Of a DNA stretch of 64,000 nucleotides, positions 715 to 48,264 are shown one piece after another. The position numbers and the translations under genes were made by a program. The stretch lies in IMG/VR virus record IMGVR_UViG_3300045988_183078; one strand, given 5' to 3'. Origin of the DNA: a virus. Numbering within the stretch: position 1 is the stretch's first letter; each line of letters starts with the position of its first letter. The notes under the pieces were generated by a model, which saw nothing but the letters and a program-made list of their open reading frames with translations, had not been told where the DNA came from and searched no databases.

Positions 715-742
715 ATCTTATGCAATTCGCATATTTTGACAA
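715..742 (-). promoter_or_regulatory. sigma70-type promoter P1 (TTGTCA-16-TAAGAT) with conserved spacer core TGCGAATTGCA
   Basis: Hexamers and 16-nt spacing read on the minus strand. The spacer motif is shared with 11 other promoters in the window. Confidence 0.6.
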
Positions 743-914
743 CCAAGTGCTTTTGTTGGATGAATGATTGGATACGAGTGGCATCGTCATATTCGAGATG
801 AAGGGTCGCGTTTACCATATTAGTAATAGCTTGGATTGGTTATTGGATAGAATTGGATAGATTTTGTATTGCTATGAGTTAATATCTAATCAAGAACGGA
901 ACAGTTGATACCCT

Positions 915-2072
915 TTACGGCTTGCAATACCCGCAAGGTGTATAGCCCTGCTCGATTAGGTCATCGCGGGAACCTGTATAGTCTTTGCGGTTTGCATCGC
1001 TCATTTGAGCTACGGCGGAGCAGTCAGGCTTATGAAATTTCATAGAGTTTGTGTTCAGGACATAGGTACTGACCGTCGTATCCTTTTGCTGTGACTCCTC
1101 GACCTCGACTGTATCGGTGGTAGTGCTTTCTGCCGCCTGGTGATATTCGCCGTAAGTGAAAATTACGTCCTTACCGTCCGATGTGCAGTAGATGTCTCCC
1201 ATCTCGTCAGTTCTGAAAACCTCAATGTCTTTGCTCTGGAGCTTTGCCAAAGTGATGTCGTGTGGATGACCATAGCTGTTGTCCTTGCCACAGGAAATAA
1301 CAGCATAGGCTGGATTCACTGTGTCGAGGAACGCTTCGGATGTGGAGGTTCGAGAACCATGATGACCTACCTTCAGAACAGTGGACTGGATGTCCTGACC
1401 AGACTGCAGGATAACATCTTCGGCAGGCTCTTCTGCGTCACCCGTAAACAGGAATGAGGTTTCTCCATAAACGATGCGTAGGACAATGGAGGTATTGTTG
1501 GTATCGTCCGGCACTGAGTTCACAGCGATGACAGTCACTTCGGCATCGCCAAGGGAGAATGTATCCCCTACCGACGGAATCGTAAGGCCGTTGCCTCTTT
1601 CTTCCGCTCGCTGCTTGAAGTTCCGAAAAGCTTTACTGTCGTACTCTGTGACAGGGCAATACGTGACATCAGCCGTCACGGCTTCGAATGCACCGGAAAG
1701 ACCTCCGATATGGTCTTCATGGGCGTGCGTGCCAACAACATAATCCAGATGTCCGTCTGTCTCACGTTCCAGAACAGAATATACGAGGTCAGAATCATCA
1801 ACATTGCCGCCATCAATAAGCATAGAATGCCCATCACAGGTAACGAGAGCAGAGTCCGCCTGCCCCACATCAATGAAGTGGATAGTAAAGCTGCCGTCTT
1901 CCGTTACGCCAGCCGTCTGCTCACTGTTAGAAACAGGACTTTCTGAGACGACCCCGGATACAGGAAGACTACCCGAATCAATCGGGGTCTGACCGCAGCC
2001 TGTGAAGCTGAGAGTGAAGAGGGCCGCAATCGTTGCCGCTGCTCTCCGTAAGAATGTGTTTTTGCTTTGCAT
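915..2072 (-). CDS. MBL-fold metallo-hydrolase lipoprotein (ComEC/Rec2-like beta-lactamase domain) with a C-terminal Ada-like zinc-binding motif
   Basis: Signal peptide with lipobox LSFTGC. HAHEDHIGG (HxHxDH) metallo-beta-lactamase motif. C-terminus FHKPDC...GYTPCGYCKP resembles the Ada N-terminal Zn-binding pattern. GGAG RBS. Confidence 0.8.
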   Translation of the reverse strand: MQSKNTFLRRAAATIAALFTLSFTGCGQTPIDSGSLPVSGVVSESPVSNSEQTAGVTEDGSFTIHFIDVGQADSALVTCDGHSMLIDGGNVDDSDLVYSVLERETDGHLDYVVGTHAHEDHIGGLSGAFEAVTADVTYCPVTEYDSKAFRNFKQRAEERGNGLTIPSVGDTFSLGDAEVTVIAVNSVPDDTNNTSIVLRIVYGETSFLFTGDAEEPAEDVILQSGQDIQSTVLKVGHHGSRTSTSEAFLDTVNPAYAVISCGKDNSYGHPHDITLAKLQSKDIEVFRTDEMGDIYCTSDGKDVIFTYGEYHQAAESTTTDTVEVEESQQKDTTVSTYVLNTNSMKFHKPDCSAVAQMSDANRKDYTGSRDDLIEQGYTPCGYCKP

Positions 2073-2089
2073 TGGAAATTTCTCCTTTC

Positions 2090-2138
2090 AAATAAAAAAG
2101 AGCGGGCCTACCCCGGAATGGGATAGGTCCGCTCTTGA
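2090..2138 (-). terminator. leader terminator-like hairpin between promoter P2 and the MBL gene (same AGAGCGG/CCGCTCT stem as at 606-650)
   Basis: Minus strand: CAAGAGCGGACCTATCCCATTCCGGGGTAGGCCCGCTCTTTTTTATTTG. Confidence 0.55.
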
Positions 2139-2203
2139 AACAGATTGTGAACGATAGAAAATCTTAACATCTTTATGCGTTTGGTATCTATCGTACAATC
2201 AAT

Positions 2204-2231
2204 ATTGTAGTCAATTCGAAAGAAATGGCAA
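2204..2231 (-). promoter_or_regulatory. promoter P2 (TTGCCA-16-TACAAT), spacer core TCGAATTGAC
   Basis: Read on the minus strand. Followed by conserved block GTACGATAGATA, as at P1. Confidence 0.55.
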
Positions 2232-2233
2232 GG

Positions 2234-2458
2234 CTATCGCCTTTGGTCATGGGACACTTTAATGTCTGCATAAATGCAGCACCCGATAAACCCAGCACTG
2301 CAAATACAGCCCGTCGCGATATGGCGAGGATAAAGAATGAGCCATGTGGGGTCAGTCATCGCCTTTGCCCAAAAAAGAACGTCCGCCAAAGCAATGGTGA
2401 GCGGAATGATAATGGTCTTTGTGACCTTCCAGATTTTCAGTAGTTTTTCCTTTGACAT
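2234..2458 (-). CDS. small hydrophobic/membrane protein (74 aa), hypothetical
   Basis: ORF co-oriented with neighbours, hydrophobic stretch. No domain recognised. Confidence 0.35.
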   Translation of the reverse strand: MSKEKLLKIWKVTKTIIIPLTIALADVLFWAKAMTDPTWLILYPRHIATGCICSAGFIGCCIYADIKVSHDQRR

Positions 2459-2470
2459 CTTTTGGTACTC

Positions 2471-3952: not shown

Positions 3953-3958
3953 TTGTGT

Positions 3959-5861: not shown

Positions 5862-6146
5862 CCTATTTAACAATGCAGTCCTTTACCGCAGCCTCTGACT
5901 CTGCATACTGCTGAGCATGGCTCTTGGCTGCCTGCAGCAAAGCGTCACGTTCTGCCTCAAGGCCACTTGCATGGATGTGTGCCGTGTTCTTTTAGCACAT
6001 GAGACAGTATGCTGCCGAACCGCCTGGCGGATGACTGCGTTTGTATGCTGAATGTTGGCAGTTTCCGAACTCGAAAAGTCTCTATCCGTGTCTTTTTTAA
6101 GATTGTATTCGGTTACAGCCTTTGCGAACTCAATAGATGTCGTCAT
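5862..6146 (-). pseudogene. frameshifted hypothetical gene. N-terminal part MTTSIEFAKAVTEYNLKKDTDRDFSSSETANIQHTNAVIRQAV..., C-terminal part in another frame ...KNTAHIHASGLEAERDALLQAAKSHAQQYAESEAAVKDCIVK
   Basis: GGAGG RBS. Start overlaps the stop of the upstream HTH gene by 17 nt. Plausible protein sequence continues in a second frame after about position 5995, implying a 1-nt indel. Confidence 0.45.
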
Positions 6147-6750
6147 AGCTGCCTCCGATTCCGGCCCAAAGAGCTTCATCGCTCAAGTCATTGCGCGGGC
6201 ATTTGATAATGCCAGCTTCTCTTAAAATTTTTCTTGCTTCATTTGGCGTTAATCCATATTGCTTAGCAAGATTCGATAGAGACTGATTTGGAATAGCTCT
6301 GGCTTGGGCAATCAATCGTCTTTTCCTCTCGGCCCAATCGATTTCGGATTTCTTTGTTTTGGGTGCAGAGCGAACGGTTCTCTCGAAGTTGATTTCGAGG
6401 TCTTTTTGGTACTTCTTCGCGATTGCCTGAATGCCGCTGCTGGTCATGCCCCACTTTTCGGCAATTTTGATGTAAGGCACACCGTTTATGTAATCTTCGT
6501 AGATTTTCTTGTTCCTGGCACGCTTTGCCTGTGTGTTTTTCTGCCAGTTTAAGCGCGTCTTTTCCAAACCGTATTCAGAGTCTGAACGAAGGATTTGTAC
6601 AATCCTATAGCCAGTCACCCCGTATTTATCAGCCAAATCCACGACACACACGCCATCCATATAATCTCGGTAAATCGCGTCATTACGTTCTTTCAAGGAT
6701 TCATGGACGTCGTTATGTCTTGGCTTCATCTTAGTATCGCTATTTCCCAT
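6130..6750 (-). CDS. DNA-binding regulator with three tandem HTH repeats (Mor/sigma-70 region-4-like)
   Basis: Three repeats of the pattern [LI]AxKYG[VLM]T...I..I (VVDLADKYGVTGYRIVQIL, YIKIAEKWGMTSSGIQAIAKKY, SNLAKQYGLTPNEARKILREAG). GGAGG RBS. ATG overlaps the helicase stop. Confidence 0.65.
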   Translation of the reverse strand: MGNSDTKMKPRHNDVHESLKERNDAIYRDYMDGVCVVDLADKYGVTGYRIVQILRSDSEYGLEKTRLNWQKNTQAKRARNKKIYEDYINGVPYIKIAEKWGMTSSGIQAIAKKYQKDLEINFERTVRSAPKTKKSEIDWAERKRRLIAQARAIPNQSLSNLAKQYGLTPNEARKILREAGIIKCPRNDLSDEALWAGIGGSYDDIY

Positions 6751-9578
6751 CACAGACCTCCAAACGAAAGCTGCTCGCCCGTGGTCTGAGGCTTTGCTTC
6801 ACTCTTTTCTTTCTTCTTGGAACCAAAACTGCCACCGTTGCGCCGCTTATAGCCATAGCCCTTGTGCGCAGCCTGAACGGATTTGTACCCATACCCGTTT
6901 GCATCGTCCAGCACAGTGTTGGAATCCTCTTCCATGATGACATAGCGTACATCACCAGGTTTAGACAGCTTAGAGGAGCGAATAACTCGATAGTCGGCCG
7001 GGAACATTTCTTTCTCTTTCTTATACTGCTCTTCCCCATCCTTCCACCAGCCGACGGGCTCAGAATCATACGTCTTACGCTCCGGCGGCAAACGCTTGTA
7101 CTGGGAGAAGTCGTAAGGTTCCGTTGCGGTCTCTTCCGCGACTTTGACATCCACGCCCATGCTCTGCAAGCTGTTCAGCATCTGCTCAAAGCTGTCAGCT
7201 GGATTCAAAACTACCTGTTTCGGGGCTTGAGCCGGGCTGTACTGGGTGACAGGCTTCGGGCGCTTCTTCTCGCGGACTTTCCAGACCTTGAGAAGCTGAC
7301 GTTCGTTGAAGTCGATGACCAAGCCGCAGTCTTTGAGCATCTTGCGAACTACATAGGTAGAGAAGGTTGAATAGCCTGAATACGGGCCGACATGGTTCTC
7401 AATATCGACTGCCACGCAAGACATCTGATGCTCAAACTCTGCATGGACATCAAGCCACTGTTCGATGACATGGAGGAGTTCTTTCTTGTTGACCGATTCT
7501 TCCGTGGCTTTCTTATTCTGTTTCACGTATGCTTCGCAGGCTGCCAGAATCGTGTCATATCCGTTTACTGCCGTGCCATCCACGATAGAGCGGGTTCCGG
7601 CATCCAGGATGACATACTGCTCACCCTGCTTGATAATAGCAACGCCTTCGTCCTGCGGCGTTTCCTCTACAATGTTGCCGCCGGTATCAAATTCAGGCAG
7701 CGAAGTGTCGGACATAACTCGGTCAAGAATCGTATCGAGGCTTTGGGAGTAGTCTTTCTCCAGATTGTAGGAGAGAGCTTCCGTATAGACGCCCTTTGTG
7801 ATACACTTCACCACTGCGTTCAAAAACGCCGTGCGGTCCGGAATTTCGACTTCATACATCGTGTTATCCCGAATGTTCCAAAGTACACCGGTAGGCAGGC
7901 CTGTAGCGAGCATATAGCAAGCGCACTGGATGAAATGCTTGTGCGCGAGGTTCGACACAAATTTAAGGCAATATACTTTATTATCTTTGACTACATCGGC
8001 CATGCCACTGACGATAAGAGAAGTGACAGGCTGTTTCAATTCATCCTGCTCCACCACAAGTTTCAACTCGGCGCGTTCCTGAACCTCTTCGTCATGCGTG
8101 AACATAGTAGAAAGACGGTCGGTCAGTGCTTTAGCCTGCTCCGGCGTGATGAAAGGCAGTTCTACCTGCTTGATATAACGGTCCTGGCTCGTCATCAGCA
8201 TTGTAAGAAACAGAACTTTTTGCTCAACGGACTTCCAAGTGGTTGGAACCTTCGCCATCTTGTCCTTGTGTAGGTACATGAAGAAGGCGATGGCGCTGTC
8301 GATGTCGTAAAAATCGAAGAAGTTTGCCTGCTGGTAGATGCCAATGCAGGGAGACAGGTCAATCATCGCATCGGAGTGCTTGATTTCAATTTCCGTCTGG
8401 TCTTTCTGGAATGCCTGCTTGGCCGTGATAAGGCTGTAGCACAAGGCTAAATCCTCATCGAACTTGAAATCGAACATTTCACTGATGTCGAATTTGTCCT
8501 TAAAGGTGGTGCGAGTCTTGACAGGGGTCATCAGTGTCTTGTCACTCACGAGGCTACGCTTATCGGGTTTGACGAAGATGACCTCCTGCTTGCCACGGCT
8601 CGCAGCTACGCAAAAGAGGTTGCGCATGATTTCGTAGCGAGTCAGCGGCTGACGCATACGGGTTGCCCAGTAATCCTCGGTGAAATCGAAGACCACGCAG
8701 ATAGGACGTTCCATGCCCTTGCTGCCGTCGAACGTTGTGAAGATGCCCACATTGCTGTTCGGAGCTATGCTTTTTTCGCCGTCGTTGTCCTTGATGCTGG
8801 CATAAACATGTTTTTTGTCGTAAAGGTTATCGGGGCGCTCTTCCAAGGCATTCAAAACTGCGGCCATCTGGCCGGTACGAGCGCCAAGGCATAGGACGTT
8901 CTTCGGGTCCAAATCGTTGAGGTACTCGATGACCTCATCCTTCGTCATGGACTTGACTTTGCAGTTCTCGTTGACTCCGTTGATTTCCTTATTCCAGATA
9001 GTGCCAAGGCGCTCGGCCAAGTCGTGGGACAAGCGGAAGCATTGGGTAAAGTTGACCTGCGTGTGTTTGCCGAGGAACTTGTTGATGAAGTTCCAGATGT
9101 CCAATGACGTGGTATCGTAGATTTTTTGCTTCATGTCCCCTACTGCGATGATTTGCATGTCGGGGTTCTCTTCCTTGATATATTCAAGCATTCGAGAAAT
9201 TTCTTCGTTAATATCTTGGTACTCATCGATGATGAGCACGTCATAGCGACCGACCGGAACATGCAAATCGAGCGCCTTCTTAATTTGCTCGCCCTGTCCA
9301 ATATTACGAACTCCGTGCCGATAGAGGAGTTTTGAAGCAAAGCCGTGGTAGTTCTGAACGACAACATTGTCGTTTAGGATTTTTTCTTGCGCGTCGAGTT
9401 TTAGCAGACGGTTATAGGTCAGGTACAGAATCTGTTTGGAGGCGTCAAACTCGTTACACAACACGTTGATGGTCGATGTTTTACCGCTGCCGATGCAAGC
9501 GTCACAGAGTATATTTCTGCCTGCGAGAGCCAGGCGTACAAGGTCCTGTTGCTCAGTAGACAGGTTAGCGAGAGTCAT
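6750..9578 (-). CDS. superfamily-1 (UvrD/Rep-like) DNA helicase domain protein, 942 aa, with an uncharacterised about 500-aa C-terminal region
   Basis: Walker A DACIGSGKTS near the N-terminus, motif II VLIIDEYQDI. GGAGG RBS (GGAGGATTCAAACC ATG). Confidence 0.8.
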   Translation of the reverse strand: MTLANLSTEQQDLVRLALAGRNILCDACIGSGKTSTINVLCNEFDASKQILYLTYNRLLKLDAQEKILNDNVVVQNYHGFASKLLYRHGVRNIGQGEQIKKALDLHVPVGRYDVLIIDEYQDINEEISRMLEYIKEENPDMQIIAVGDMKQKIYDTTSLDIWNFINKFLGKHTQVNFTQCFRLSHDLAERLGTIWNKEINGVNENCKVKSMTKDEVIEYLNDLDPKNVLCLGARTGQMAAVLNALEERPDNLYDKKHVYASIKDNDGEKSIAPNSNVGIFTTFDGSKGMERPICVVFDFTEDYWATRMRQPLTRYEIMRNLFCVAASRGKQEVIFVKPDKRSLVSDKTLMTPVKTRTTFKDKFDISEMFDFKFDEDLALCYSLITAKQAFQKDQTEIEIKHSDAMIDLSPCIGIYQQANFFDFYDIDSAIAFFMYLHKDKMAKVPTTWKSVEQKVLFLTMLMTSQDRYIKQVELPFITPEQAKALTDRLSTMFTHDEEVQERAELKLVVEQDELKQPVTSLIVSGMADVVKDNKVYCLKFVSNLAHKHFIQCACYMLATGLPTGVLWNIRDNTMYEVEIPDRTAFLNAVVKCITKGVYTEALSYNLEKDYSQSLDTILDRVMSDTSLPEFDTGGNIVEETPQDEGVAIIKQGEQYVILDAGTRSIVDGTAVNGYDTILAACEAYVKQNKKATEESVNKKELLHVIEQWLDVHAEFEHQMSCVAVDIENHVGPYSGYSTFSTYVVRKMLKDCGLVIDFNERQLLKVWKVREKKRPKPVTQYSPAQAPKQVVLNPADSFEQMLNSLQSMGVDVKVAEETATEPYDFSQYKRLPPERKTYDSEPVGWWKDGEEQYKKEKEMFPADYRVIRSSKLSKPGDVRYVIMEEDSNTVLDDANGYGYKSVQAAHKGYGYKRRNGGSFGSKKKEKSEAKPQTTGEQLSFGGL

Positions 9579-9605: not shown

Positions 9606-9653
9606 ACGCAAAAAGAATACCCCGGCAGGCACGCATGGTGTTCCGCCGGGGTA
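9606..9653 (-). terminator. leader hairpin (ACCCCGGC...GCCGGGGT) plus T-run between promoter P3 and the helicase gene
   Basis: Minus strand: ACCCCGGCGGAACACCATGCGTGCCTGCCGGGGTATTCTTTTTGCG. Confidence 0.55.
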
Positions 9654-9676
9654 CAATTATTTATCTTACAATATCA

Positions 9677-9704
9677 ATTGTAGGCAATTCGCACAGATGG
9701 TCAA
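9677..9704 (-). promoter_or_regulatory. promoter P3 (TTGACC-16-TACAAT), spacer atctGTGCGAATTGCc
   Basis: Minus-strand reading. The -10 is embedded in the dyad TACAATTGATATTGTA. Confidence 0.65.
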
Positions 9705-9751: not shown

Positions 9752-9880
9752 CGTCCACCCGTGATTTACGGATGGACGTTCAATCTTACGCAGCCACATG
9801 TGCTGCTAAGATGCTTTCGGACGACATGTAGCCGATACCGTCCTCGTTTCAATCTTACGCAGTCACACGGGCTGCTACGG
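9752..9880. repeat. non-coding repeats: imperfect inverted repeat (9752-9778) and two roughly 30-bp direct repeats CAATCTTACGCAG(C/T)CAC... (9781-9810, 9850-9880)
   Basis: Seen directly in a 400-nt ORF-free stretch between the nucleotidyltransferase gene and P3. Confidence 0.5.
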
Positions 9881-14373: not shown

Positions 14374-14700
14374 TTAGCCTTCGATATCGAAAGTGTAGCC
14401 CTTCACGGTCATAGTGACCAGGCCGCCACGAGACTGACACTTTACGCCGTCCAGGCTGACATCGAGAGTCAGGCTGGAATCTTCGTTGTCCAGCCAGCTG
14501 GGCCGCATGTAGGCAGCGAGGTCGTGCAGCGCACCGATGACGTAAGCAACCAGGTCCTCATCATCCAGAGTCTGAGCAATCACATCGTTTTCCTTGTCGG
14601 CGGGAAAGCCGATGGAAGCGGTGATGCTGTCAAGGGTGTTGTCGTCCTTGGAGCGGAAAGCGGTGGCGCTGAACTCAATCAGGTTGGGGTTGATGTTCAT
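14374..14700 (-). CDS. paralog-family C small acidic protein (C1, 108 aa)
   Basis: AGGAGAATACC RBS. About 50% identical to 14886-15206. Net charge about -12. Confidence 0.65.
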   Translation of the reverse strand: MNINPNLIEFSATAFRSKDDNTLDSITASIGFPADKENDVIAQTLDDEDLVAYVIGALHDLAAYMRPSWLDNEDSSLTLDVSLDGVKCQSRGGLVTMTVKGYTFDIEG

Positions 14701-14748: not shown

Positions 14749-14776
14749 ATTGTATGCGACTCGCATAAGGCGTCAA
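14749..14776 (-). promoter_or_regulatory. promoter P4 (TTGACG-16-TACAAT), spacer ccttaTGCGAGTCGCA (dyad TGCGA.TCGCA)
   Basis: Minus-strand reading. Confidence 0.6.
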
Positions 14777-14885: not shown

Positions 14886-15206
14886 TTAATCTTCGAGGTT
14901 GAAGGTGAAGCCGTTTCCTTTCATAGCAACGAGACCGCCGCGTGACTGAGCCTCGCTGCCGTCGATGAAAATATCCAGCGTCAGGCTGGTATCCTCGCCG
15001 TCCAGCCAGTTGGGGCGTAGGTCGCTGACAAGGTTGTACAGTGCTGCAACAGCATGAACAATAAGCTTCTCATCGTCCAGCGTGTTCCCAATCACTTCGT
15101 CGTCGTTCTCCACGGGTACGCTGATGGAAGCCGAGAGACTTTCGAGGTTGTTGTCGTCATCATTGCGGAATGCGGTAGCTTCAAATTTCAGAGTGCAAGT
15201 ATTCAT
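14886..15206 (-). CDS. paralog-family C small acidic protein (C2, 106 aa)
   Basis: AAAGGAGATTTCCC RBS. Tandem duplicate of C1 with its own promoter and terminator. Confidence 0.65.
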   Translation of the reverse strand: MNTCTLKFEATAFRNDDDNNLESLSASISVPVENDDEVIGNTLDDEKLIVHAVAALYNLVSDLRPNWLDGEDTSLTLDIFIDGSEAQSRGGLVAMKGNGFTFNLED

Positions 15207-15253
15207 GGGAAATCTCCTTTGTATATGTTATTGGGGGTCTTCTTGCACCTTTA

Positions 15254-15281
15254 ATTGTACGCAAATCGCACGATACAGCAA
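15254..15281 (-). promoter_or_regulatory. promoter P5 (TTGCTG-16-TACAAT), spacer tatcGTGCGATTTGCG
   Basis: Minus-strand reading. Confidence 0.55.
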
Positions 15282-15343
15282 TATAAAATTTGCTTAATCA
15301 AATCCGGTATATTTGAATTTAATTCGTGAAATCCTGAATTCCT

Positions 15344-15922
15344 TTATTCGCTTGACGTTAGCTCTTTTTCAAACTCGACTTTGAGTTGCTTTGCCCTTTC
15401 ATCAGCACATAGTTTGTCATATAATAGTTTATCGTCTCTATCGTAAGAGTTAAAGACGTATGTGTTTTTTATGCAAGCCATGTTGCTTGTCGCACACCAT
15501 GATTTTGCATGCCCAATTAAGCATTCGCACAGCTGTTTTACATCTATAATTCTAAACTGCTCAAAAGATAATCCGCTACAGTGGTTGCCCAAAGAAAAGA
15601 ACAATCTTTTCTTGCCGTCTGCTATATTGGCGCATCCAGCGTGTACTATATCGCATCGCAGATTGTATAAGACATCAGCAAATTCCGTGCCAAGGCACTC
15701 TTTTATCCATATATCATTATTCATTTGAGATTTGCACCAATCCACATAGCATTTTTTATCATTGAAATAGTTCCCATTTTTATAAGCTTCATTATTAGCG
15801 TATTCCAATCTCGAACACATACTTGGAAGCATTAGTGCTACAGACAAAGCACTCCAATAATTTTCGTCTTTCAGAGACTTTTCGCCAGAAGTAATAAAAT
15901 CATAAATGTTAAAATAACTCAT
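15344..15922 (-). CDS. Cys-rich hypothetical protein (192 aa) in AT-rich island
   Basis: Local GC about 33% versus about 50% in flanks. No recognisable domain. Confidence 0.55.
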   Translation of the reverse strand: MSYFNIYDFITSGEKSLKDENYWSALSVALMLPSMCSRLEYANNEAYKNGNYFNDKKCYVDWCKSQMNNDIWIKECLGTEFADVLYNLRCDIVHAGCANIADGKKRLFFSLGNHCSGLSFEQFRIIDVKQLCECLIGHAKSWCATSNMACIKNTYVFNSYDRDDKLLYDKLCADERAKQLKVEFEKELTSSE

Positions 15923-16038
15923 TTGTTAACGCTCCTTTCCTTAAAACAAAAAGCCTCCCACCGCAGTCAGTGTGATACTGATTACGATAGGAGGCTGTAA
16001 ACATGTTGTGATGTTTGTATTATAACGCTTATACTACA

Positions 16039-16704
16039 TTATGTAAATATATTATTTTTGGAATCTGGTTTTGATAGTTTCCCATTTAGTCCTTTTTTGA
16101 GAAGCCTAAGCGAAATTTCAAGTGGGCTGATAATATCCTCGTAGATATATACACAGCGACGATGCGTAAAATCATTATTTTCACTGCAGACCATCATTAC
16201 AAAGTCTGGACTTTTGTTTTTGTTATATGCTTCGTCTTCACTAAAGCCGCAGCAAGTCCCTGTCATAGTGGTATCCATTTTGCAAAATGGGTGAATGTCT
16301 ACATACCATTCTGTTCCATTTCTTCCAAAATCACATTCGCTTCCGCGTCTTGTGTCGAATGGGTGTGCTGTTGTAATGCTCCTTAGCGTTCTGAAACGCG
16401 TGATTTTTAGCTTTTCATCCTCGCTAAAATATTCTGAGCAATTCTCCCCGATTGCAACATTAAATAAATATCTGATAGCGCATAAACACATACTTGTTTT
16501 CAGAATTAGAAGTAACACGTCATCCTGATTATATTTCTCTTTTCTTAACAGAACTTGTATATCTCCAAGATAATAAACCAACATTTGCTTGGCGGCATAT
16601 ATCTTGTTTTTTTCTTTTCCACTCTTGTTTGAAAGACTGATTATTTTATTAGCTGCCGTTTGAGTTAAATTCAGCTGTCTTAATGTTTTCTCATTTACGC
16701 TCAT
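16039..16704 (-). CDS. hypothetical protein (221 aa) in AT-rich island
   Basis: Low GC. No recognisable domain. Confidence 0.55.
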   Translation of the reverse strand: MSVNEKTLRQLNLTQTAANKIISLSNKSGKEKNKIYAAKQMLVYYLGDIQVLLRKEKYNQDDVLLLILKTSMCLCAIRYLFNVAIGENCSEYFSEDEKLKITRFRTLRSITTAHPFDTRRGSECDFGRNGTEWYVDIHPFCKMDTTMTGTCCGFSEDEAYNKNKSPDFVMMVCSENNDFTHRRCVYIYEDIISPLEISLRLLKKGLNGKLSKPDSKNNIFT

Positions 16705-20630: not shown

Positions 20631-20659
20631 TCAAAACACTTATTTAGCTTACAATTTTC

Positions 20660-20687
20660 ATTCTATGCAATTCGCACAGACACGCAA
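20660..20687 (-). promoter_or_regulatory. promoter P6 (TTGCGT-16-TAGAAT), spacer gtctGTGCGAATTGCA
   Basis: Minus-strand reading. Confidence 0.6.
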
Positions 20688-21356: not shown

Positions 21357-21384
21357 ATGATACTCGATTCGCACGGATGAACAA
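21357..21384 (-). promoter_or_regulatory. promoter P7 (TTGTTC-16-TATCAT), spacer atccGTGCGAATCGAG
   Basis: Minus-strand reading. Confidence 0.5.
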
Positions 21385-25868: not shown

Positions 25869-25896
25869 ATTATCTGCAATTCGCACAAATCATCAA
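25869..25896 (-). promoter_or_regulatory. promoter P8 (TTGATG-16-GATAAT), spacer atttGTGCGAATTGCA
   Basis: Minus-strand reading. Confidence 0.6.
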
Positions 25897-32765: not shown

Positions 32766-32821
32766 ATTCATACTCCTTTCGCTCATCACAACCAATGCCT
32801 GTCTTTTGTGCAGGCGCGAAT

Positions 32822-32862
32822 ACAAACAAAAAAGCTGCGGAAGCAAAAGCAACCACAGCCTT
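32822..32862 (-). terminator. terminator-like hairpin (GCUGUGG...CCGCAGC plus UUUUUUGUUUG) inside the roughly 240-nt flotillin leader
   Basis: Seen on the minus strand about 60 nt upstream of the RBS. Confidence 0.45.
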
Positions 32863-33008
32863 TTATATGAACCACCGGCCCAGGAAAAAGCCGATGGGGT
32901 GAATACAAGCGGAAAGCAAACATGTCAAAGTGAGAGGAAACCACGTCGTACACACCGGCAGGAAGAGGTTAAGACCCGCCGGAACCCAATTCCGCTTGTA
33001 CAATTCTA

Positions 33009-33036
33009 ATTCTACGCAATTCGCACAAATGCACAA
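33009..33036 (-). promoter_or_regulatory. promoter P9 (TTGTGC-16-TAGAAT), spacer atttGTGCGAATTGCG
   Basis: Minus-strand reading. Confidence 0.6.
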
Positions 33037-33097: not shown

Positions 33098-33274
33098 CCG
33101 TAAGAAAGGATAAAGAAAGGATGTAAGGAACGAGGTGACTGCATGAAAGCAGATAGAACCGTCGGAGAGGGACGGCAAATGTTGTGAGAACTCAGGCACT
33201 GTACCCTGCCCCGGTTTGCATGGCTGCCATCGACAGCACCGTCGGGTCTTTGTCCTTGCCCTCTATATTGTATT

Positions 33275-33290
33275 ATACCACATGTGGTAT
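33275..33290. promoter_or_regulatory. perfect 16-bp palindrome ATACCACATGTGGTAT (operator-like) in a non-coding stretch
   Basis: Seen directly. Adjacent to a plus-strand TATAAT-containing segment. Confidence 0.4.
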
Positions 33291-33451
33291 ACAAAATCAA
33301 GATGCAATCCGAAAATATGGCACATTTAGTGCTTTGTCTGTATAATGAGTTGAACTTTTTTGCCTCTGTTTGTGGAGCTCAATCCAAAAAGATAGCCGTT
33401 TTCCAACATTTTGGGAAATGAGATACACTTTTAACTTTAACTCATTCCTGA

Positions 33452-33954
33452 AGCAGAGTAATGATGACGGTTCTGGCATTGGAATAGTCCGAGGCACAGG
33501 TCGTCAGTGCCAACACCTTATAAGTTCCAGCATCTTTTTTGTAGGCTGCGAGTACATCCTGATTTACGTTCTCTGCATTTTCTTCTACATGTCTCGGCAG
33601 CAAAGCCAAACGGTGCGTAGACGCTTTCCAGCTGTTCAGCCGTTAGATAGTAGCGTTCCCGGCCAGCCAGGTGTTCGGGTCCTTGCAGGTCTGTGGTACT
33701 GCCCACCTTTGCCCAGTCACCATTGATGAAAGCAAAGAAATCGGCAGCCGAGCCGTCCTTGCTTTCAAGTTTGATGTCTGCTTCTTTGTCTTCTTCAAGG
33801 CTGCTTTGCATTGCTGTTTCGGAGGTCGCAATTGATGTTGTATTTTGTCCCTTCTTATCATCTGCGTAAGCCGCCGGTATGAAAGGAGTAAACAACTGCG
33901 CGGCGAGCAAAATGGCAGCCGATAAGCTTGTGATTCTTTTTGCGTCTGTCACTG
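33452..33954 (-). pseudogene. secreted protein gene with apparent frameshift (signal peptide MTDAKRITSLSAAILLAAQLFTPFIPAAYA; C-terminal part continues in another frame ...HVEENAENVNQDVLAAYKKDAGTYKVLALTTCASDYSNARTVIITLLQE)
   Basis: GTG start with AAAGGTG RBS just downstream of promoter P10. Frame 0 degenerates into an R/K/C-rich tail near 33595 while the adjacent frame is protein-like. Confidence 0.45.
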
Positions 33955-34014: not shown

Positions 34015-34042
34015 ATTGTTGCCAATTCGCACGTTTTGGCAA
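34015..34042 (-). promoter_or_regulatory. promoter P10 (TTGCCA-16-AACAAT), spacer aaacGTGCGAATTGGC
   Basis: Minus-strand reading. Confidence 0.55.
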
Positions 34043-34150: not shown

Positions 34151-34180
34151 CTGTCAAGATTTATTATGATATGGTATAAT
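34151..34180 (+). promoter_or_regulatory. plus-strand promoter with extended -10 (TGGTATAAT)
   Basis: Upstream of 34211-34624(+). Confidence 0.45.
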
Positions 34181-34210
34181 GGGTATAGAAAATGAGAGGA
34201 ATGATGTGTA

Positions 34211-35704: not shown

Positions 35705-35775
35705 ACCGACTCCTTTCTGTCAATTGGACAATTTGTCATCTTTTGTCAATTTCGCTCACAAATAAAGTGACGATA

Positions 35776-35803
35776 TTGACGAATTAGCGCAATTCCGTAT
35801 AAT
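35776..35803 (+). promoter_or_regulatory. promoter P11 (TTGACG-16-TATAAT) on the plus strand, spacer aattaGCGCAATTCCG (same core in opposite orientation)
   Basis: Drives the BlaI-like regulator gene. Confidence 0.6.
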
Positions 35804-35846
35804 TGAAATCAGCATTACAGAATAGCAATGAAAGTTGGTGTTTTCT

Positions 35847-36230
35847 ATGGCAGCTTCCAGCCATGCGCCCCGTCCGTATCATCTGACTCCCGCAGAGGAA
35901 ACCGTTATGAAAGCTTTCTGGAACAGCAAAAAGCCGCTGTGCCAGCAGGATATCCTTGACCATGTGAAAGAGAATGGTGACCTGTTCTGGAAAGAGCGTT
36001 CCATCTTCGCCATCATCAATTCCTTGATGAAGAAAGGCTGTATTAAGGAAGATGGTATGGTTCGCGCAGGTAAGACCTATGCGAGAACCTTTGTCGCAGC
36101 TATGAGCCGTCCGGAGTTCTACGCCGCTATGGTTACAAACGCTCTGACAAAGAAGGAACTGGTCGAGTTCCGCCGCGCTATGCGTCATTTGGCGAGTGAA
36201 GACACTGAGTCTCCTGACGAGGAGGCTTGA
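35847..36230 (+). CDS. BlaI/MecI/CopY-family winged-helix transcriptional repressor
   Basis: LTPAEETVMKAFW...ILDHVKE...WKERSIFAIINSLMKKGCI matches the penicillinase-repressor family N-terminal wHTH. Start choice uncertain (ATG 35847, no clear SD). Confidence 0.7.
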   Translation: MAASSHAPRPYHLTPAEETVMKAFWNSKKPLCQQDILDHVKENGDLFWKERSIFAIINSLMKKGCIKEDGMVRAGKTYARTFVAAMSRPEFYAAMVTNALTKKELVEFRRAMRHLASEDTESPDEEA

Positions 36231-38112: not shown

Positions 38113-38307
38113 AATATACAACCTCAATTCGTACAGATGGTTCCTAATTCGCATATAACAACCGACTGTTGTTATTATAGCCTATCAAGTGGTGGGATGC
38201 AAGGGGTATGGAAGAATTTGCCGTTTGCAATCCCATTAGTTACTCTACAACTGTGGAAGACCTTGACAAAAGAAAGAGAGGAGCTTGTTTGGCTCCCCTC
38301 TTTTACT

Positions 38308-40017: not shown

Positions 40018-40093
40018 TCCTTTTCTATCTGTATTATATCAATCACGGTATCAACAACCAATGTTGGCGGCAAGAATGTTACAGATTCTTCAG

Positions 40094-43753: not shown

Positions 43754-44088
43754 CGTGTTCTCCTTTGTCTGGGTTGCGCCAGATTTCTCTAATATAACAT
43801 TATACGACATGTTGCGGTATTTATCAATCACCACGCTTTTCCGTGTACGGCAAGCTTCACATTTTCCCGACGAGTTTTTGCTGATTCCGGCACTTTTTGC
43901 AGCGAGTTTTGTTCTGCGGCTCGGGATTCATGTGAGCACTGCGCTCTGCACCCATATAGAGCATCTCACTATCTGTTTCTTGGCAGACTGTTCTGATGCG
44001 AGAGCTGGCATGGCTTGCCCGCCATGAAGCGTGTGCCGGTTGTACTGGACCATGCCCCCTTGCCGTGGTTCATCCAGCACAAAGAAAA

Positions 44089-46745: not shown

Positions 46746-46850
46746 AATTGCCTTTCCGGCTGTTCACTTCAGCCCAATTCTTGTGTATTCCAAAGTGCTG
46801 CTTCATAGTTCTTGATGACCTTATATCAGGCAACAGCTTCATCATATCTC

Positions 46851-47084
46851 TTATTTCTTCGTTTTCTTCCCGGCTTCTTTCAAAATAGTCACCTTCGTCT
46901 TCGGATGCAGCTTATCCTTTACAGCTTCATATTCTTCTGTCGTCCCCTCAAAGGTGATTTTACTACCTCCTGCTACCATCGCTTTTTGCATATCAAGAGA
47001 GTCAATGCACTGTGCGGATTCCGTATGAACTCCAATGATAGTTCCTGTTCCGCGTCCTCTCGGACTTATCACTTCATATACCAT
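46851..47084 (-). CDS. small hypothetical protein (77 aa)
   Basis: AGGAGG RBS. Confidence 0.5.
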   Translation of the reverse strand: MVYEVISPRGRGTGTIIGVHTESAQCIDSLDMQKAMVAGGSKITFEGTTEEYEAVKDKLHPKTKVTILKEAGKKTKK

Positions 47085-47262
47085 GTTTGGCTACGCCTCC
47101 TAAAAAGAAAAAGAACGACGGCTACGCAACCAGCGACCAGTTTCATGGTGGCAGCTACGCTTCCGTCGTTCATAAGCTCCTTTGCTATTGGCAGCGATGC
47201 TTTCATCCTCTGCCTACGGTTCGTTCCACGCGCACCTACGGTTTCACCCGCCGGGCTACGCT

Positions 47263-47451
47263 TTAATCATCGTCGTCTTTGAGTGCGTTATAGGCAAAGA
47301 ACCCATAAAGGCCAAAGAAGTACAGCGTAATAACCCAAGTGGGAAGGTATTCAGTCACGCCGGTCAGCGTGAAGACAACAGCCATAATACAAGCCGTTAC
47401 CAGGAACTGCGAATCGACGTACAGCACCAATCCGATGTTAAAGCCTTTCAT
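47263..47451 (-). CDS. small membrane protein (62 aa) ending DDDD
   Basis: Strong RBS GAGGAGG. Two TM helices. Confidence 0.55.
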   Translation of the reverse strand: MKGFNIGLVLYVDSQFLVTACIMAVVFTLTGVTEYLPTWVITLYFFGLYGFFAYNALKDDDD

Positions 47452-47453
47452 CT

Positions 47454-48119
47454 TTATGCCTCCTCAAAGTAGTCTCTCAGCGAGTCAGAGACTTTAACTC
47501 GTACAGTGTCATCCCACGAGTCGTATTTGTTCTCCGGGTACGAAACATCTTCGACAGAACTCAGCTTCCAGGTAGAAACAGGCTCACCGTCTTCGATGCG
47601 AACAATGGTAGGAGCGCCGATACGCTTCTCTCCAATCTCGTACTTGTTCTTGTCCTTATCACTTACCGTGTAATCTGCCAGGTAGTCTTGCAGCCAATTG
47701 AGAAGTTCATCATACCCTTCCCCTGCTGCTTTTGTCATCACAGGAGCACCAGCATTCTCGTCGTATGCGTAGATGTCGCGGTACTCATCGATTTGGCAGT
47801 AGTAAACGGTCTGGTTCTTTTCTTTGGCAATACCGGTAAGTTCAGGAATCAGGTTGCGGCAGTAAGGGCAGCGAGGATACGCAAAGATAACGATGCCATC
47901 TTTGATTTCTCTCGCCTGTGTCGCAGTCACTTCAACATAAGTGTTATTCCAGGGAATGCCTACGGTTTGATAGGTATAGTCAGCAGCTACGCTCGGCTTC
48001 TGGTTGTTGTATCCAGAGTAGCTTCTTGCAACTACGGCTCCATCACTACTGGCTACGCTAATTGCAGCAGCCATTGCCAGCGATGCAACTACGTAAGGAA
48101 CAATGAATTTCTTAGTCAT
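47454..48119 (-). CDS. secreted thioredoxin-fold thiol-disulfide oxidoreductase (CPYC)
   Basis: Signal peptide. FAYPRCPYCRNLIPEL thioredoxin CxxC motif. Common in Gram-positive conjugation gene clusters. Confidence 0.75.
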   Translation of the reverse strand: MTKKFIVPYVVASLAMAAAISVASSDGAVVARSYSGYNNQKPSVAADYTYQTVGIPWNNTYVEVTATQAREIKDGIVIFAYPRCPYCRNLIPELTGIAKEKNQTVYYCQIDEYRDIYAYDENAGAPVMTKAAGEGYDELLNWLQDYLADYTVSDKDKNKYEIGEKRIGAPTIVRIEDGEPVSTWKLSSVEDVSYPENKYDSWDDTVRVKVSDSLRDYFEEA

Positions 48120-48235
48120 TTCTCAAAACCTCAAGTGCCTACGGTCAGGAGCTACGCTTTGAGGTTTGTAGTTCTTCGGCTACGCTTCGGCAGCTACGCT
48201 CCTTCCGTGTTTCGTCTTCTTTATTTTCATCGCCA

Positions 48236-48264
48236 TTATACCACGAATTCGTAATTGTCTCAAT
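48236..48264 (-). promoter_or_regulatory. promoter P12 (TTGAGA-17-TATAAT with TGG extended -10), spacer caattACGAATTCGtgg
   Basis: Minus-strand reading. Coordinates about +/-1. Confidence 0.55.

What the first reader, a model, noticed from the sequence alone, without database searches (positions are those of the whole stretch)
715..48264. Family of at least 12 promoters sharing TTGnnn-16 nt-TAnnAT with a conserved GTGCGAATTGC spacer core
P1-P12 (see features) have sigma70-like hexamers at exact 16-nt spacing (17 at P12). They all carry a near-identical, partly dyad-symmetric 11-mer (consensus tGTGCGAATTGCa; variants TGCGAGTCGCA, ACGAATTCGTG) in the spacer, usually right against the -10. They sit upstream of most operons of the element, including the BlaI/MecI-like repressor gene itself (P11, opposite orientation). 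Several -10 regions are embedded in TACAAT...ATTGTA dyads, which resemble BlaI/MecI-type TACA/TGTA operators. This looks like a single regulon controlled by an element-encoded repressor binding inside the promoter spacer.
Basis: seen in the sequence. Interest (0 to 1): 0.7.

Follow-up and report, generated by a model that had tools for sequence, protein, structure and literature searches.

The report
Shared-operator promoter family, conjugative anti-defence island
A gut-bacterial conjugative element drives about ten of its accessory (largely anti-defence) operons from near-identical promoters that carry an extra conserved TGCGA motif between the -35 and -10 boxes, most likely so that one element-encoded protein switches them all together; this resembles known plasmid 'establishment regulons' but uses a different motif and adds unusual leader terminators.

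Summary
TTG-N8-TGCGA-N3-G-N3-A-N3-T occurs 9 times in the window against 0.07 expected. All 10 members lie on the minus strand between 715 and 34042, each upstream of an ORF. P11 (35776, plus strand) and P12 (48263) fail the family matrix.

The window is part of a conjugative element (coupling protein, VirB4-like ATPase). The promoters sit only in its accessory half, which holds AcrVA2-like, NADAR and MBL-fold genes and a mini-CRISPR array. None lie in the transfer-gene half.

Relatives occur in more than 120 human-gut metagenome contigs, giving 87 distinct promoter groups. TGCGA is as conserved as the -35 and -10 boxes and always lies 11 bp from the TTG.

Best reading: a sigma-A promoter family with a built-in operator for an element-encoded regulator, giving transient expression after transfer (analogues: Reg576/p576, ArdK/R388, Aca). 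The best candidate is a tandem triple-HTH (Mor-like) protein, the commonest first gene behind these promoters. The BlaI-like TACA/TGTA idea is weakly supported.

About 40% of the promoters are followed by a conserved start sequence and a leader terminator. One leader class is a covarying RNA motif absent from Rfam. An antitermination-type mechanism therefore remains possible.

The parts
715..742 (-). Family promoter Pa: TTGTCA-AAATATGCGAATTGCA-TAAGAT. Drives a type I leader, then a 110-aa ORF (253-585).
   Evidence: Matrix score 32.7, leave-one-out 22.9; pattern hit.
613..708 (-). Type I leader RNA after Pa: GUACGAUAGAUAAC, variable hairpin, UUCACAAUUU, then an intrinsic terminator.
   Evidence: Covariance model R1, 75.7 bits. 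Its 5' end lies 6 nt after the -10. Fold.
2204..2231 (-). Family promoter Pb: TTGCCA-TTTCTTTCGAATTGAC-TACAAT. Drives a type I leader, then a 385-aa MBL-fold hydrolase (915-2072; faint Apyc1-like hit in orthologues).
2095..2196 (-). Type I leader RNA after Pb, with terminator.
   Evidence: R1, 73.5 bits.
9677..9704 (-). Family promoter Pc (best match): TTGACC-ATCTGTGCGAATTGCC-TACAAT. Drives the UvrD-like helicase (6750-9578), the tandem-HTH gene and onward to the sortase gene.
   Evidence: Matrix score 41.0. Conserved in L026-L034 while flanks vary.
9610..9670 (-). Type II leader after Pc: UGUAAGAUAAAUAAUUGU plus terminator hairpin ACCCCGGCGG...CCGGGGU and a U-run.
   Evidence: Fold at -30.8 kcal/mol. 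Stem kept while the loop changes in orthologues.
14749..14776 (-). Family promoter Pd: TTGACG-CCTTATGCGAGTCGCA-TACAAT. Drives a 108-aa ORF (14374-14700).
15254..15281 (-). Family promoter Pe: TTGCTG-TATCGTGCGATTTGCG-TACAAT. Drives a 106-aa ORF (14886-15206), a paralogue of the Pd gene.
20660..20687 (-). Family promoter Pf: TTGCGT-GTCTGTGCGAATTGCA-TAGAAT. Drives a type II leader with terminator (about 20600-20653), then a 220-aa ORF and a NADAR-domain gene (19492-19935).
21357..21384 (-). Family promoter Pg: TTGTTC-ATCCGTGCGAATCGAG-TATCAT. Drives a 203-aa ORF (20705-21316).
25869..25896 (-). Family promoter Ph: TTGATG-ATTTGTGCGAATTGCA-GATAAT. Drives an ORF of about 425 aa (24558-25835), then an HNH gene.
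33009..33036 (-). Family promoter Pi: TTGTGC-ATTTGTGCGAATTGCG-TAGAAT. Drives a type III structured leader, then a flotillin/SPFH-like gene and an operon that includes the AcrVA2-like gene (27496-28383).
32815..33002 (-). Type III leader: a roughly 100-nt domain closed by GUACAAGCGG/CCGCUUGUA, containing CCUCUUCC. Further hairpins and a U-run follow.
   Evidence: Fold at -54.8 kcal/mol. Homologues in L008, L043, L044 and L051 precede different genes. No Rfam match.
34015..34042 (-). Family promoter Pj: TTGCCA-AAACGTGCGAATTGGC-AACAAT. Drives an ORF of about 144 aa (33518-33952).
6130..6750 (-). Tandem triple-HTH (Mor-like) protein, 206-207 aa, in the Pc operon. Best candidate for the factor that reads the spacer motif.
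   Evidence: Pfam Mor/HTH_23. Three HTH units in the AF2 model. A paralogue of 169-176 aa sits directly behind a family promoter in relatives.
35847..36230 (+). BlaI/MecI-like (Penicillinase_R) repressor gene. Minority candidate regulator.
   Evidence: Pfam PF03965, E = 1.4e-10. Recognition helix and wing invariant across 48-94% identity. Family-type promoter in L051/L109/L139.
35776..35803 (+). Not a family member in this window.
   Evidence: Below 12 bits. Spacer not conserved in L043/L044.
48235..48263 (-). An ordinary promoter, not a member.

Best explanation
What it is. These are sigma-A (sigma-70-type) promoters of a large conjugative element from an uncultured human-gut Clostridiales bacterium. 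They share a built-in regulatory site. Its core, TGCGA, lies exactly 11 bp downstream of the -35 TTG, with a weaker YYGCR 3' part, and the spacer is always 16 bp.

How it most likely works. One element-encoded DNA-binding protein recognises this site and occludes RNA polymerase. All the accessory, largely anti-defence ('establishment') operons are then silent in an established host. After transfer, the DNA enters a new cell without the protein and the operons fire together. They shut off again as the regulator, itself made from a family promoter, accumulates.

Most likely regulator. The tandem triple-HTH (Mor-like) protein at 6130-6750, or its 169-176-aa paralogue. Its single-chain, asymmetric architecture fits an asymmetric site. 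Its three HTH units could span the three conserved blocks spaced 11 bp apart (TTG, TGCGA, TAnAAT).

Second layer. In about 40% of the promoters a conserved initial transcribed sequence (TRTAMGATARATAA) and an intrinsic terminator in the leader damp or gate read-through into the genes.

Shown: the family, its register, its conservation, its gene context and the leader structures.
Inferred: that a protein binds the site, that it represses, which protein it is, and the timing after transfer.
For: - Non-random family in the window: 9 hits against 0.07 expected. Leave-one-out scores are 18-38 bits against a shuffle maximum of 12.6.
- All 10 sites are intergenic, co-oriented with the next ORF, and 22-150 nt upstream of an RBS-preceded start codon.
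- The motif is selected, not just inherited. In 64 promoter groups that do not match the search pattern, T11 G12 C13 G14 A15 carry 1.8-2.0 bits. That equals the -35 TTG and the -10 A2/T6, while -35 positions 4-6 and spacer positions 1-4 carry 0.5 bits or less.
- Strict register: TTG to TGCGA is 11 bp in essentially all contexts, and TGCGA to the -10 is 11 bp (160 contexts) or 12 bp (18). 114 of 124 unique TGCGAATTG contexts are in-register promoters.
- It is element-specific, not a host promoter habit. A scan of 185,579 species genomes found only one true relative, L008. More than 120 gut-metagenome contigs carry it. Ordinary promoters in the same element are TGnTATAAT with 17-bp spacers.
- The same core persists in elements whose regulators are only 25-55% identical.
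- Context is a conjugative element (T4CP, VirB4-like). The promoters lie only in the half that holds AcrVA2-like, NADAR, MBL-fold/faint Apyc1-like, HNH and Y-family polymerase genes, plus a mini-CRISPR array.
- The tandem-HTH family is the largest cluster of genes immediately downstream of family promoters (34 of 266 promoter hits with a called ORF, 5 promoter variants, across the most divergent elements). The window's copy is in the Pc operon.
- The promoter prediction is corroborated. A conserved leader RNA motif (43 covariance-model hits) always begins 6-7 nt after the predicted -10.
- Precedents for the logic: Reg576/p576 (PMC6294495, PMC8708921), ArdK/R388 (PMC9723621), and Aca repressors, including one Aca controlling several operons and binding both DNA and 5'UTR RNA (PMC13551039).
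Against: - No binding or expression data exist, so repression as opposed to activation or antitermination is inferred from promoter quality only.
- The absolute register to the -35 is tighter than most steric repressors need. It would equally suit a factor that works with RNA polymerase.
- A pure repressor model does not explain the leader terminators placed after the promoter in 62 of 152 unique promoters. It also does not explain the invariant 14-nt transcript start.
- Mor-family proteins are classically activators.
- The AF2 model of the triple-HTH is only moderate (pLDDT 73.5, pTM 0.35), and the fold search gave nothing significant.
- The BlaI-like gene also carries a family promoter in some elements.
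- Anti-defence assignments rest on Pfam-level or faint hits, and most genes are of unknown function.
- The origin of transfer was not located, so 'leading region' is not shown.
Confidence: 0.5

Rival explanations
1. Promoter-proximal antitermination of the lambda-Q type. The spacer element is a loading site for an element-encoded factor. That factor joins RNA polymerase paused at a -10-like sequence just after the start (TAAGAT/TACGAT at about +2 to +7) and makes it read through the leader terminator and later terminators.
For: - The site lies between -35 and -10 in fixed register, as the Q-binding element does in lambda PR' (own knowledge).
- The -10-like initial transcribed motif TRTAVRVT is strongly associated with a leader terminator: 35 promoters have both, 7 the motif only, 27 the terminator only, 83 neither.
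- 62 of 152 unique promoters have a terminator before the first ORF, and type III leaders have two in tandem.
- The terminator hairpin of type I leaders carries a conserved A.C mismatch and a U.G pair amid covarying pairs, which suggests specific recognition.
Against: - No Q, NusG/LoaP-like or other antiterminator domain was found in about 70 window ORFs scanned with Pfam.
- More than half of the family promoters have short leaders with no terminator, yet keep the spacer motif.
- The motif-terminator association may reflect shared ancestry of leader modules.
- Needing a newly made factor would delay anti-defence expression after entry.
Confidence: 0.15
2. The BlaI/MecI-like repressor (35847-36230) controls the family, through the TACAAT...ATTGTA dyads or through the quasi-palindromic core TGCGA-N-TYGCA.
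For: - A Penicillinase_R protein is present, and its DNA-reading helix and wing are invariant across relatives at 48-94% identity.
- Orthologous genes in L051, L109 and L139 sit behind a bona fide family promoter, TTGACG-ATACTTGCGAGTTGCC-TATAAT.
- The 5-1-5 layout of the core resembles the close half-site spacing of cop-box/BlaI operators (own knowledge).
Against: - In the window and in L043/L044 its own promoter lacks the motif. The conserved element there is a different palindrome, GACAATTTGTC.
- The family logo is strongly asymmetric.
- TACA/TGTA dyads are perfect at only 2 of 10 sites and have different spacing.
- It follows family promoters far more rarely than the tandem-HTH genes do (3 against 34 of 266).
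Confidence: 0.13
3. The spacer motif is read by the transcription machinery itself. It could be a dedicated element- or host-encoded sigma or activator, or a direct RNA polymerase-spacer contact that makes these promoters unusually strong. In this reading it is not an operator.
For: - The register to the -35 is absolute, at one helical turn.
- The spacer is uniformly a non-optimal 16 bp, and the -10 is never the consensus TATAAT. Other promoters of the element are 17 bp with TGnTATAAT.
- Mor-family proteins are activators (Pfam name).
Against: - No sigma-factor domain appears in the window ORFs scanned.
- The -35 TTG and the -10 A2/T6 are fully kept, so sigma-A should suffice.
- Nothing is conserved upstream of -35, where Mor/C-type activators bind (IC 0.3 bits or less).
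- MerR-type spacer activators need 19-20-bp spacers.
- The motif is virtually absent from 185,579 species genomes.
Confidence: 0.12
4. No regulatory role. The similarity reflects copy-and-paste spread of one promoter cassette, perhaps serving as homology for shuffling gene cassettes.
For: Gene content between conserved promoters differs among related elements. The same leader modules precede unrelated genes.
Against: Neutral copies would decay evenly. Instead the -35 tail and the first four spacer bases are randomised while TGCGA stays near-invariant across 64 or more groups, with no indels between TTG and TGCGA.
Confidence: 0.07

Closest known systems
Establishment regulon of Bacillus plasmid p576 (EGeRS2 promoters repressed by Reg576; PMC6294495, PMC8708921)
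   Same: It is on a Gram-positive conjugative element. Several strong sigma-A promoters with a shared conserved regulatory sequence sit upstream of variable establishment or anti-defence operons. The regulator's own gene is under one of them. The expected outcome is transient expression after transfer.
   Different: The Reg576 operator is a dual TTATCCC heptamer flanking the -35 or the start site, not a site inside the spacer. Reg576 is a ribbon-helix-helix protein, and no such protein was identified here. p576 has 4 promoters, against at least 10 here and dozens of variants in relatives. No leader terminators or conserved transcript start are described for EGeRS2.
ArdK / KorA-type global repressors of Gram-negative plasmids (R388 ArdK, PMC9723621; pKM101 CUP repeats, own knowledge)
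   Same: One plasmid HTH protein represses several promoters that each contain a conserved repeat, including anti-restriction genes. Asymmetric recognition is documented for ArdK.
   Different: The proteins and motifs are unrelated, the hosts are Proteobacteria, and the operators are direct or inverted repeats without a fixed position in the spacer.
Aca (anti-CRISPR-associated) repressors of acr promoters (PMC13551039)
   Same: Strong promoters of anti-defence genes carry an operator overlapping the promoter. One Aca can control several operons. Aca2 (and Aca1) also bind conserved RNA structures in the 5'UTR, which parallels the conserved leaders here.
   Different: Aca proteins are small dimeric HTH or RHH proteins that bind inverted repeats. 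The site here is asymmetric, the candidate is a single-chain triple-HTH, and the leaders contain terminators.
Lambda PR' / Q antitermination module (own knowledge)
   Same: The layout matches: a factor site between -35 and -10, a -10-like element in the first transcribed bases, and a terminator a short distance downstream.
   Different: No Q homologue was found. There are many copies per element instead of one, and more than half of the copies lack the terminator.
Frpo/ssi single-strand promoters of leading regions (PMC11541004)
   Same: They are repeated promoters upstream of anti-defence genes, all on one strand of a conjugative element.
   Different: The -35 and -10 boxes here are not paired in the folded single strand. 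These are ordinary duplex promoters.

Membership tests
Sigma-70/sigma-A type promoter | -35 TTGnnn and -10 TAnnnT hexamers separated by 16-18 bp | tested here: met
   All 10 have TTG, a 16-nt spacer, and A2/T6 in the -10.
Sigma-70/sigma-A type promoter | Intergenic, and oriented toward an ORF with a ribosome-binding site | tested here: met
   Each site lies 22-150 nt upstream of an RBS-preceded start codon on the same strand.
Sigma-70/sigma-A type promoter | Mapped transcription start 6-8 nt after the -10 | not testable with these tools
   Indirect support only: a conserved leader RNA motif always begins 6-7 nt after the -10.
BlaI/MecI/CopY regulon | Operator with a TACA/TGTA dyad (cop-box type TACAnnTGTA) at the regulated promoters | tested here: not met
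   Only TACAAT-N4-ATTGTA (TACA-N8-TGTA) is present. It is perfect at 2 of 10 sites, and the family logo is weak at those positions.
BlaI/MecI/CopY regulon | Penicillinase_R-family repressor encoded in the element | tested here: met
   PF03965, E = 1.4e-10, for 35835-36230.
BlaI/MecI/CopY regulon | Repressor gene autoregulated through the same operator | tested here: inconclusive
   A family-type promoter is present in L051/L109/L139. It is degenerate in the window and absent in L043/L044, where GACAATTTGTC is the conserved element.
Plasmid establishment regulon (p576 EGeRS2/Reg576 type) | Several promoters on a conjugative element sharing one conserved regulatory sequence | tested here: met
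Plasmid establishment regulon (p576 EGeRS2/Reg576 type) | Downstream genes are establishment or anti-defence genes | tested here: inconclusive
   AcrVA2-like, NADAR and a faint Apyc1-like MBL are present. Most genes are unknown, and oriT was not located.
Plasmid establishment regulon (p576 EGeRS2/Reg576 type) | RHH repressor Reg576 and dual TTATCCC operator | tested here: not met
   The motif is TGCGA-N3-G inside the spacer, and no RHH hit was found among the scanned ORFs. This is an analogue, not a homologue.
Plasmid establishment regulon (p576 EGeRS2/Reg576 type) | Transient de-repression after transfer | not testable with these tools
   Needs mating experiments with reporters.
Frpo/ssi single-strand DNA promoter | The single strand folds so that -35 and -10 lie in a duplex-like hairpin | tested here: not met
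   DNA folds of 2085-2275 and 600-790 pair only the leader hairpins, not the promoter boxes.
Lambda-Q-type antitermination module | Factor site in the spacer, a -10-like pause element at about +1 to +7, and a downstream terminator | tested here: inconclusive
   The layout is present at Pa, Pb, Pc and Pf, and in 35 of 152 unique promoters overall. It is absent at Pd, Pe, Pg, Ph and Pj.
Lambda-Q-type antitermination module | Q-family antiterminator gene | tested here: not met
   No Q, NusG or LoaP domain was found in the window ORFs scanned. The element extends beyond the window.
MerR-type spacer-binding activation | Over-long 19-20-bp spacer with a dyad operator | tested here: not met
   The spacer is 16 bp, rarely 17.
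Mor/C (phage Mu) activator-dependent promoter | Conserved binding site upstream of or overlapping -35, with a poor -35 | tested here: not met
   No conservation from -20 to -1 relative to the TTG (IC 0.3 or less), and TTG is 95-98% conserved.
Known RNA families (Rfam 15) for the leaders | Match at the gathering score, or a suggestive E-value | tested here: not met
   There were 0 matches at gathering for the whole window, and only chance-level matches in the leader regions.

The most novel reading that the evidence does not exclude
The module of spacer site, invariant transcript start and leader terminator is a new, massively reiterated post-initiation switch for anti-defence genes. It would be one of two things. 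The first is a Q-like factor loaded at TGCGA that lets RNA polymerase pass the leader terminators. The second is a protein- or ligand-responsive attenuator RNA (the type I leader: invariant 5' GUACGAUAGAUAMC, junction UUCACAAUYU, and a terminator with a conserved A.C mismatch). In either case a conjugative element would gate dozens of counter-defence cassettes at the level of termination, and a single-chain triple-HTH protein would read a three-block, 11-bp-periodic promoter.
Probability: 0.2. Interest if true: 0.85.

Novelty: new variant of a known kind. Interest (0 to 1): 0.6.

Why it matters
Conjugative elements must express counter-defence genes quickly and briefly when they enter a new cell. 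Outside a few Bacillus and Proteobacterial plasmids, how this is wired is largely unknown.

This finding gives a simple sequence signature, TTG-N8-TGCGA-N3-G-N3-TAnnAT. The signature marks the whole accessory regulon of a widespread family of very large gut Clostridiales elements (contigs up to about 370 kb, seen in more than 120 metagenome contigs).

It can serve as a guilt-by-association handle for new anti-defence genes. Most genes behind these promoters have no known function, and some lie next to AcrVA2-like and NADAR genes and a mini-CRISPR array.

It also points to an uncharacterised class of tandem-HTH regulators, and to at least one new structured leader RNA that couples promoters to terminators.

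Tried and rejected
- Near-identity searches of 30-50 kb of the window against the plasmid and phage record collections found no match.
- An exact look-up of the window's BlaI-like protein found nothing on record.
- In the genome-collection motif scan, 24 of 25 hits were chance matches in unrelated taxa, and only L008 was a relative.
- The core with up to 2 mismatches is not enriched (23 against 24.6 expected). Only the 0-1 mismatch and in-register versions are.
- Spo0A box, LexA/Cheo box, cre, sigma-H and ECF promoter consensus sequences were compared from memory and rejected as non-matching.
- The TGCGAATT copies upstream of the Y-family polymerase gene (38124-38154) were considered as stand-alone operators. 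They are not conserved in relatives.
- Frpo-like single-strand promoter folding was rejected.
- Rfam found no family for any leader.
- The AF2 model of the triple-HTH, searched with Foldseek against PDB, gave only generic HTH hits, none significant. A PDB sequence search gave nothing relevant.
- Possible complementarity between the type I leader motif CAATTTCG and the spacer core was examined by eye and judged too short and inconsistent to claim.
- An overlapping second promoter using TGCGAA as -35 and TRTAAG as -10 was considered. It was judged unlikely because that -10 lacks the -7 T.
- A look-up of P0155 found nothing on record.

Full report
**1. Checking the observation**

A scan for GTGCGAATTGC with up to one mismatch gives 8 hits against 2.0 expected, and no shuffle reaches 8. 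Seven of the hits lie on the minus strand inside TTGnnn-16 nt-TAnnAT promoters.

The register pattern TTG-N8-TGCGA-N3-G-N3-A-N3-T gives 9 hits against 0.07 expected. The tenth member (2204-2231) has TTCGA in place of TGCGA.

A position matrix built from the ten sites gives leave-one-out scores of 18-38 bits. Twenty shuffled windows reached at most 12.6 bits, and nothing else in the real window exceeds 12. The core 8-mer GCGAATTG occurs six times, always in these spacers and never in coding sequence.

With two mismatches allowed the bare 11-mer is not enriched (23 against 24.6 expected). The signal lies in the near-exact, in-register copies.

- P12 is a standard TGG-TATAAT extended -10 promoter with a 17-nt spacer and an out-of-register ACGAATTCG.
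- P11's spacer is not conserved in relatives.

All ten members lie between 715 and 34042. None lie in the 34-64 kb part.

**2. What the window is**

Pfam identifies a type IV coupling protein (57299-59470), a VirB4/TraG-like ATPase (51621-54329) and an M23 peptidase. The window is therefore part of a conjugative element. Nearly all genes are on the minus strand. There is no close match among plasmid or phage records.

The half that carries the promoter family encodes:
- an MBL-fold hydrolase, whose orthologues have a faint Apyc1-like hit;
- a NADAR protein;
- a protein 98% identical to one annotated AcrVA2-like;
- an HNH nuclease, an RlaP-family nucleotidyltransferase, a MazG-like protein and a UvrD-like helicase;
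- many ORFs with no family assignment.

A Y-family polymerase, a YpsA/SLOG protein, a BlaI-like repressor and an XRE protein sit at 35-38 kb. This content matches the anti-defence islands described for the leading regions of conjugative elements (PMC11541004). I could not locate the origin of transfer.

**3. Relatives**

A scan of one genome per species (185,579 species) with TGTGCGAATTGCNTANAAT returned 25 loci. Only one, a Clostridiales MAG (L008), is a true relative. The motif is therefore not a general promoter feature of any sampled host.

Homologues of the window's triple-HTH protein led to syntenic loci on contigs of up to 258 kb. More distant ones led to L036/L037. Homologues of the BlaI-like protein led to L039-L044. 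All of these loci carry the same promoter family, including elements whose regulators are only 25-55% identical to the window's.

Across all loci I found 297 matrix hits, 166 unique sequences and 87 distinct promoter groups.

In the 64 groups that do not match the search pattern:
- T11 G12 C13 G14 A15 carry 1.8-2.0 bits each, equal to the -35 TTG and the -10 A2/T6;
- the rest of the -35 hexamer and the first four spacer bases carry 0.5 bits or less;
- the 3' half (A/T/T/G/C/R) carries 0.5-1.5 bits.

This logo is conditional on a matrix threshold. The unconditioned register test gives the same picture. Among 618 unique TGCGA-N3-G contexts, the combination of TTG 11 bp upstream and a -10 hexamer 11 bp downstream occurs 160 times. 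A further 18 have the -10 at 12 bp, and almost nothing lies in other registers. 114 of 124 unique TGCGAATTG contexts are in-register promoters.

The element is therefore selected, asymmetric, and locked one helical turn from the -35.

**4. What lies downstream**

Most members have TRTA 5-6 nt after the -10. Many share the first 14-15 transcribed bases (TGTACGATAGATAMC or TRTAAGATAAATAAG).

Pa, Pb, Pc and Pf have a strong intrinsic terminator between the promoter and the start codon. In the whole data set, 62 of 152 unique promoters have such a terminator. This co-occurs with the -10-like start motif: 35 have both, 7 the motif only, 27 the terminator only, and 83 neither. Shared ancestry of leader modules inflates this association.

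There are three leader classes.

- **Type I (Pa, Pb).** It has an invariant 5' GUACGAUAGAUAMC, a short helix pairing the 5' end, a variable hairpin, the junction UUCACAAUYU, and a terminator hairpin. In that hairpin, 7 of 11 pairs show compensatory changes and 98.6% of cells are paired. A conserved A.C mismatch and a U.G pair are retained. Shuffle and slide controls are far lower. A covariance model finds 43 copies in 0.96 Mb of loci. Every strong copy begins 6-7 nt after the -10 of a TTG-16-TAnnAT promoter with TGCGA in register, even where the 3' half of the core has decayed. This is independent support for the predicted start sites. It also shows that TGCGA is the essential part of the core.
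- **Type II (Pc, Pf).** It is a short leader with a terminator. The stem is kept while the loop changes in orthologues.
- **Type III (Pi).** It is a roughly 100-125-nt domain closed by GUACAAGCGG/CCGCUUGUA, with a conserved CCUCUUCC. One or two terminators follow in relatives. It precedes unrelated genes in different elements.

None of the leaders matches Rfam.

**5. Which factor?**

No sigma, Q, NusG-like or RHH domain was found in about 70 window ORFs scanned.

The first candidate is the 206-207-aa Mor-like protein at 6130-6750, in the Pc operon.
- It consists of three tandem HTH units.
- Each element also has a 169-176-aa paralogue (28% identity). That gene lies directly behind a family promoter in every relative examined.
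- This tandem-HTH family is the largest cluster of first genes behind family promoters (34 of 266).
- The wider family has 124 representatives in a 1.8-billion-protein library, some with up to 10 repeats.
- A single-chain triple-HTH fits an asymmetric site. The three conserved blocks (TTG, TGCGA, TAnAAT) are spaced 11 and 11 bp apart, which is an appealing but unproven match.

The second candidate is the BlaI-like protein.
- For: its DNA-reading residues are invariant across relatives, and in L051, L109 and L139 its gene has a genuine family promoter.
- Against: in the window and in L043/L044 it does not, and the conserved neighbouring element is GACAATTTGTC. The TACA/TGTA dyads are not a family feature.

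**6. Mechanism**

The promoters are good sigma-A promoters on their own (for example TTGACC-16-TACAAT). Nothing is conserved upstream of -35, and the spacer is short. These facts argue against Mor/C-type or MerR-type activation.

The single strand does not fold into an Frpo-like promoter.

The best-supported reading is a common repressor site inside the spacer. It would give zygotic-induction-type control of an establishment or anti-defence regulon, as shown experimentally for Reg576 on p576 (PMC6294495, PMC8708921), ArdK on R388 (PMC9723621) and Aca proteins (PMC13551039).

The pure repressor model leaves three things unexplained: the absolute register, the invariant transcript start and the leader terminators. 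A lambda-Q-like or attenuator-type layer is therefore a live alternative or addition.

My probabilities are about 0.5 for the repressor-operator model, with the tandem-HTH as the favoured factor. The rivals get 0.15 (Q-like), 0.13 (BlaI-like as the factor), 0.12 (machinery-intrinsic or activator) and 0.07 (no regulatory role).

**7. Novelty**

The logic is known. The motif, its fixed position in the spacer, the candidate regulator class, the scale (dozens of variants in a widespread family of very large gut elements) and the coupled leader RNAs are not described in the literature I could search.

I rate it a new variant of a known kind, with interest 0.6.

Noticed in passing
window 9776-9876 (minus strand): Orphan mini-CRISPR array just upstream of Pc. 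Repeat 1 is GTAGCAGCCCGTGTGACTGCGTAAGATTGAAAC, followed by a 37-nt spacer and then repeat 2, TAGCAGCACATGTGGCTGCGTAAGATTGAAC, with a terminator after it. The repeat resembles type I-C repeats (from memory). Relatives L028/L029 keep the repeats but carry a different spacer.
   Followed up: partly
window 613-708 and 2095-2196 (minus strand); 43 copies in loci: Type I leader: a conserved RNA motif at the 5' end of transcripts. It has an invariant GUACGAUAGAUAMC, the junction UUCACAAUYU, and a covarying terminator with a conserved A.C mismatch. It is not in Rfam.
   Followed up: yes
window 32815-33002 (minus strand); L008, L043, L044, L051, L054: Type III leader: a roughly 100-125-nt structured RNA closed by GUACAAGCGG/CCGCUUGUA, with a conserved CCUCUUCC (anti-Shine-Dalgarno-like). 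One or two terminators follow. It precedes flotillin-like, AcrVA2-like or other genes in different elements.
   Followed up: partly
window 35715-35760 (plus strand): Palindrome GACAATTTGTC and TGTCAATT repeats lie between the YpsA-like and BlaI-like genes. The palindrome is conserved in L043/L044 while the BlaI promoter spacer is not. It is a probable operator of the BlaI-like or XRE protein.
   Followed up: partly
window 38155-38205 (minus strand): The promoter of the Y-family polymerase gene carries the palindrome AACAACAGTCGGTTGTT. A related CAACCGGCGGTTG sits inside the promoter spacer in L040/L043/L044. It looks like a separate operator.
   Followed up: no
window 14374-14700 and 14886-15206 (minus strand): Tandem paralogous small proteins of 106-108 aa, each with its own family promoter. 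This family is the second commonest behind family promoters (19 occurrences, 15 promoter variants). It has no Pfam hit. They are candidate small anti-defence proteins.
   Followed up: no
window 33270-33300, 38175-38202, 40033-40061, 43799-43827 (minus strand); 34160-34200 (plus strand): A second, ordinary promoter class in the same element: TTGnnn-17-TATAAT, often with a TGn extended -10 and without the TGCGA core.
   Followed up: partly
L036 about 15000-16150: tRNA-like sequences (an acceptor/T-arm ending in CCA, and a long-variable-arm tRNA) lie inside the accessory region of a related element. They were not checked with ARAGORN.
   Followed up: no
P0012, P0019, P0028 and others: The Mor-like HTH unit occurs as arrays of up to 10 tandem repeats in proteins of up to 1557 aa. 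This is an uncharacterised poly-HTH protein family.
   Followed up: no
window 1-34100 against loci L026-L044: Gene cassettes between conserved promoters differ among otherwise syntenic elements, for example a 385-aa against a 561-aa MBL protein, and the presence or absence of AcrVA2-like, PDDEXK and IS605 genes. This suggests cassette shuffling at the promoter and leader modules.
   Followed up: no
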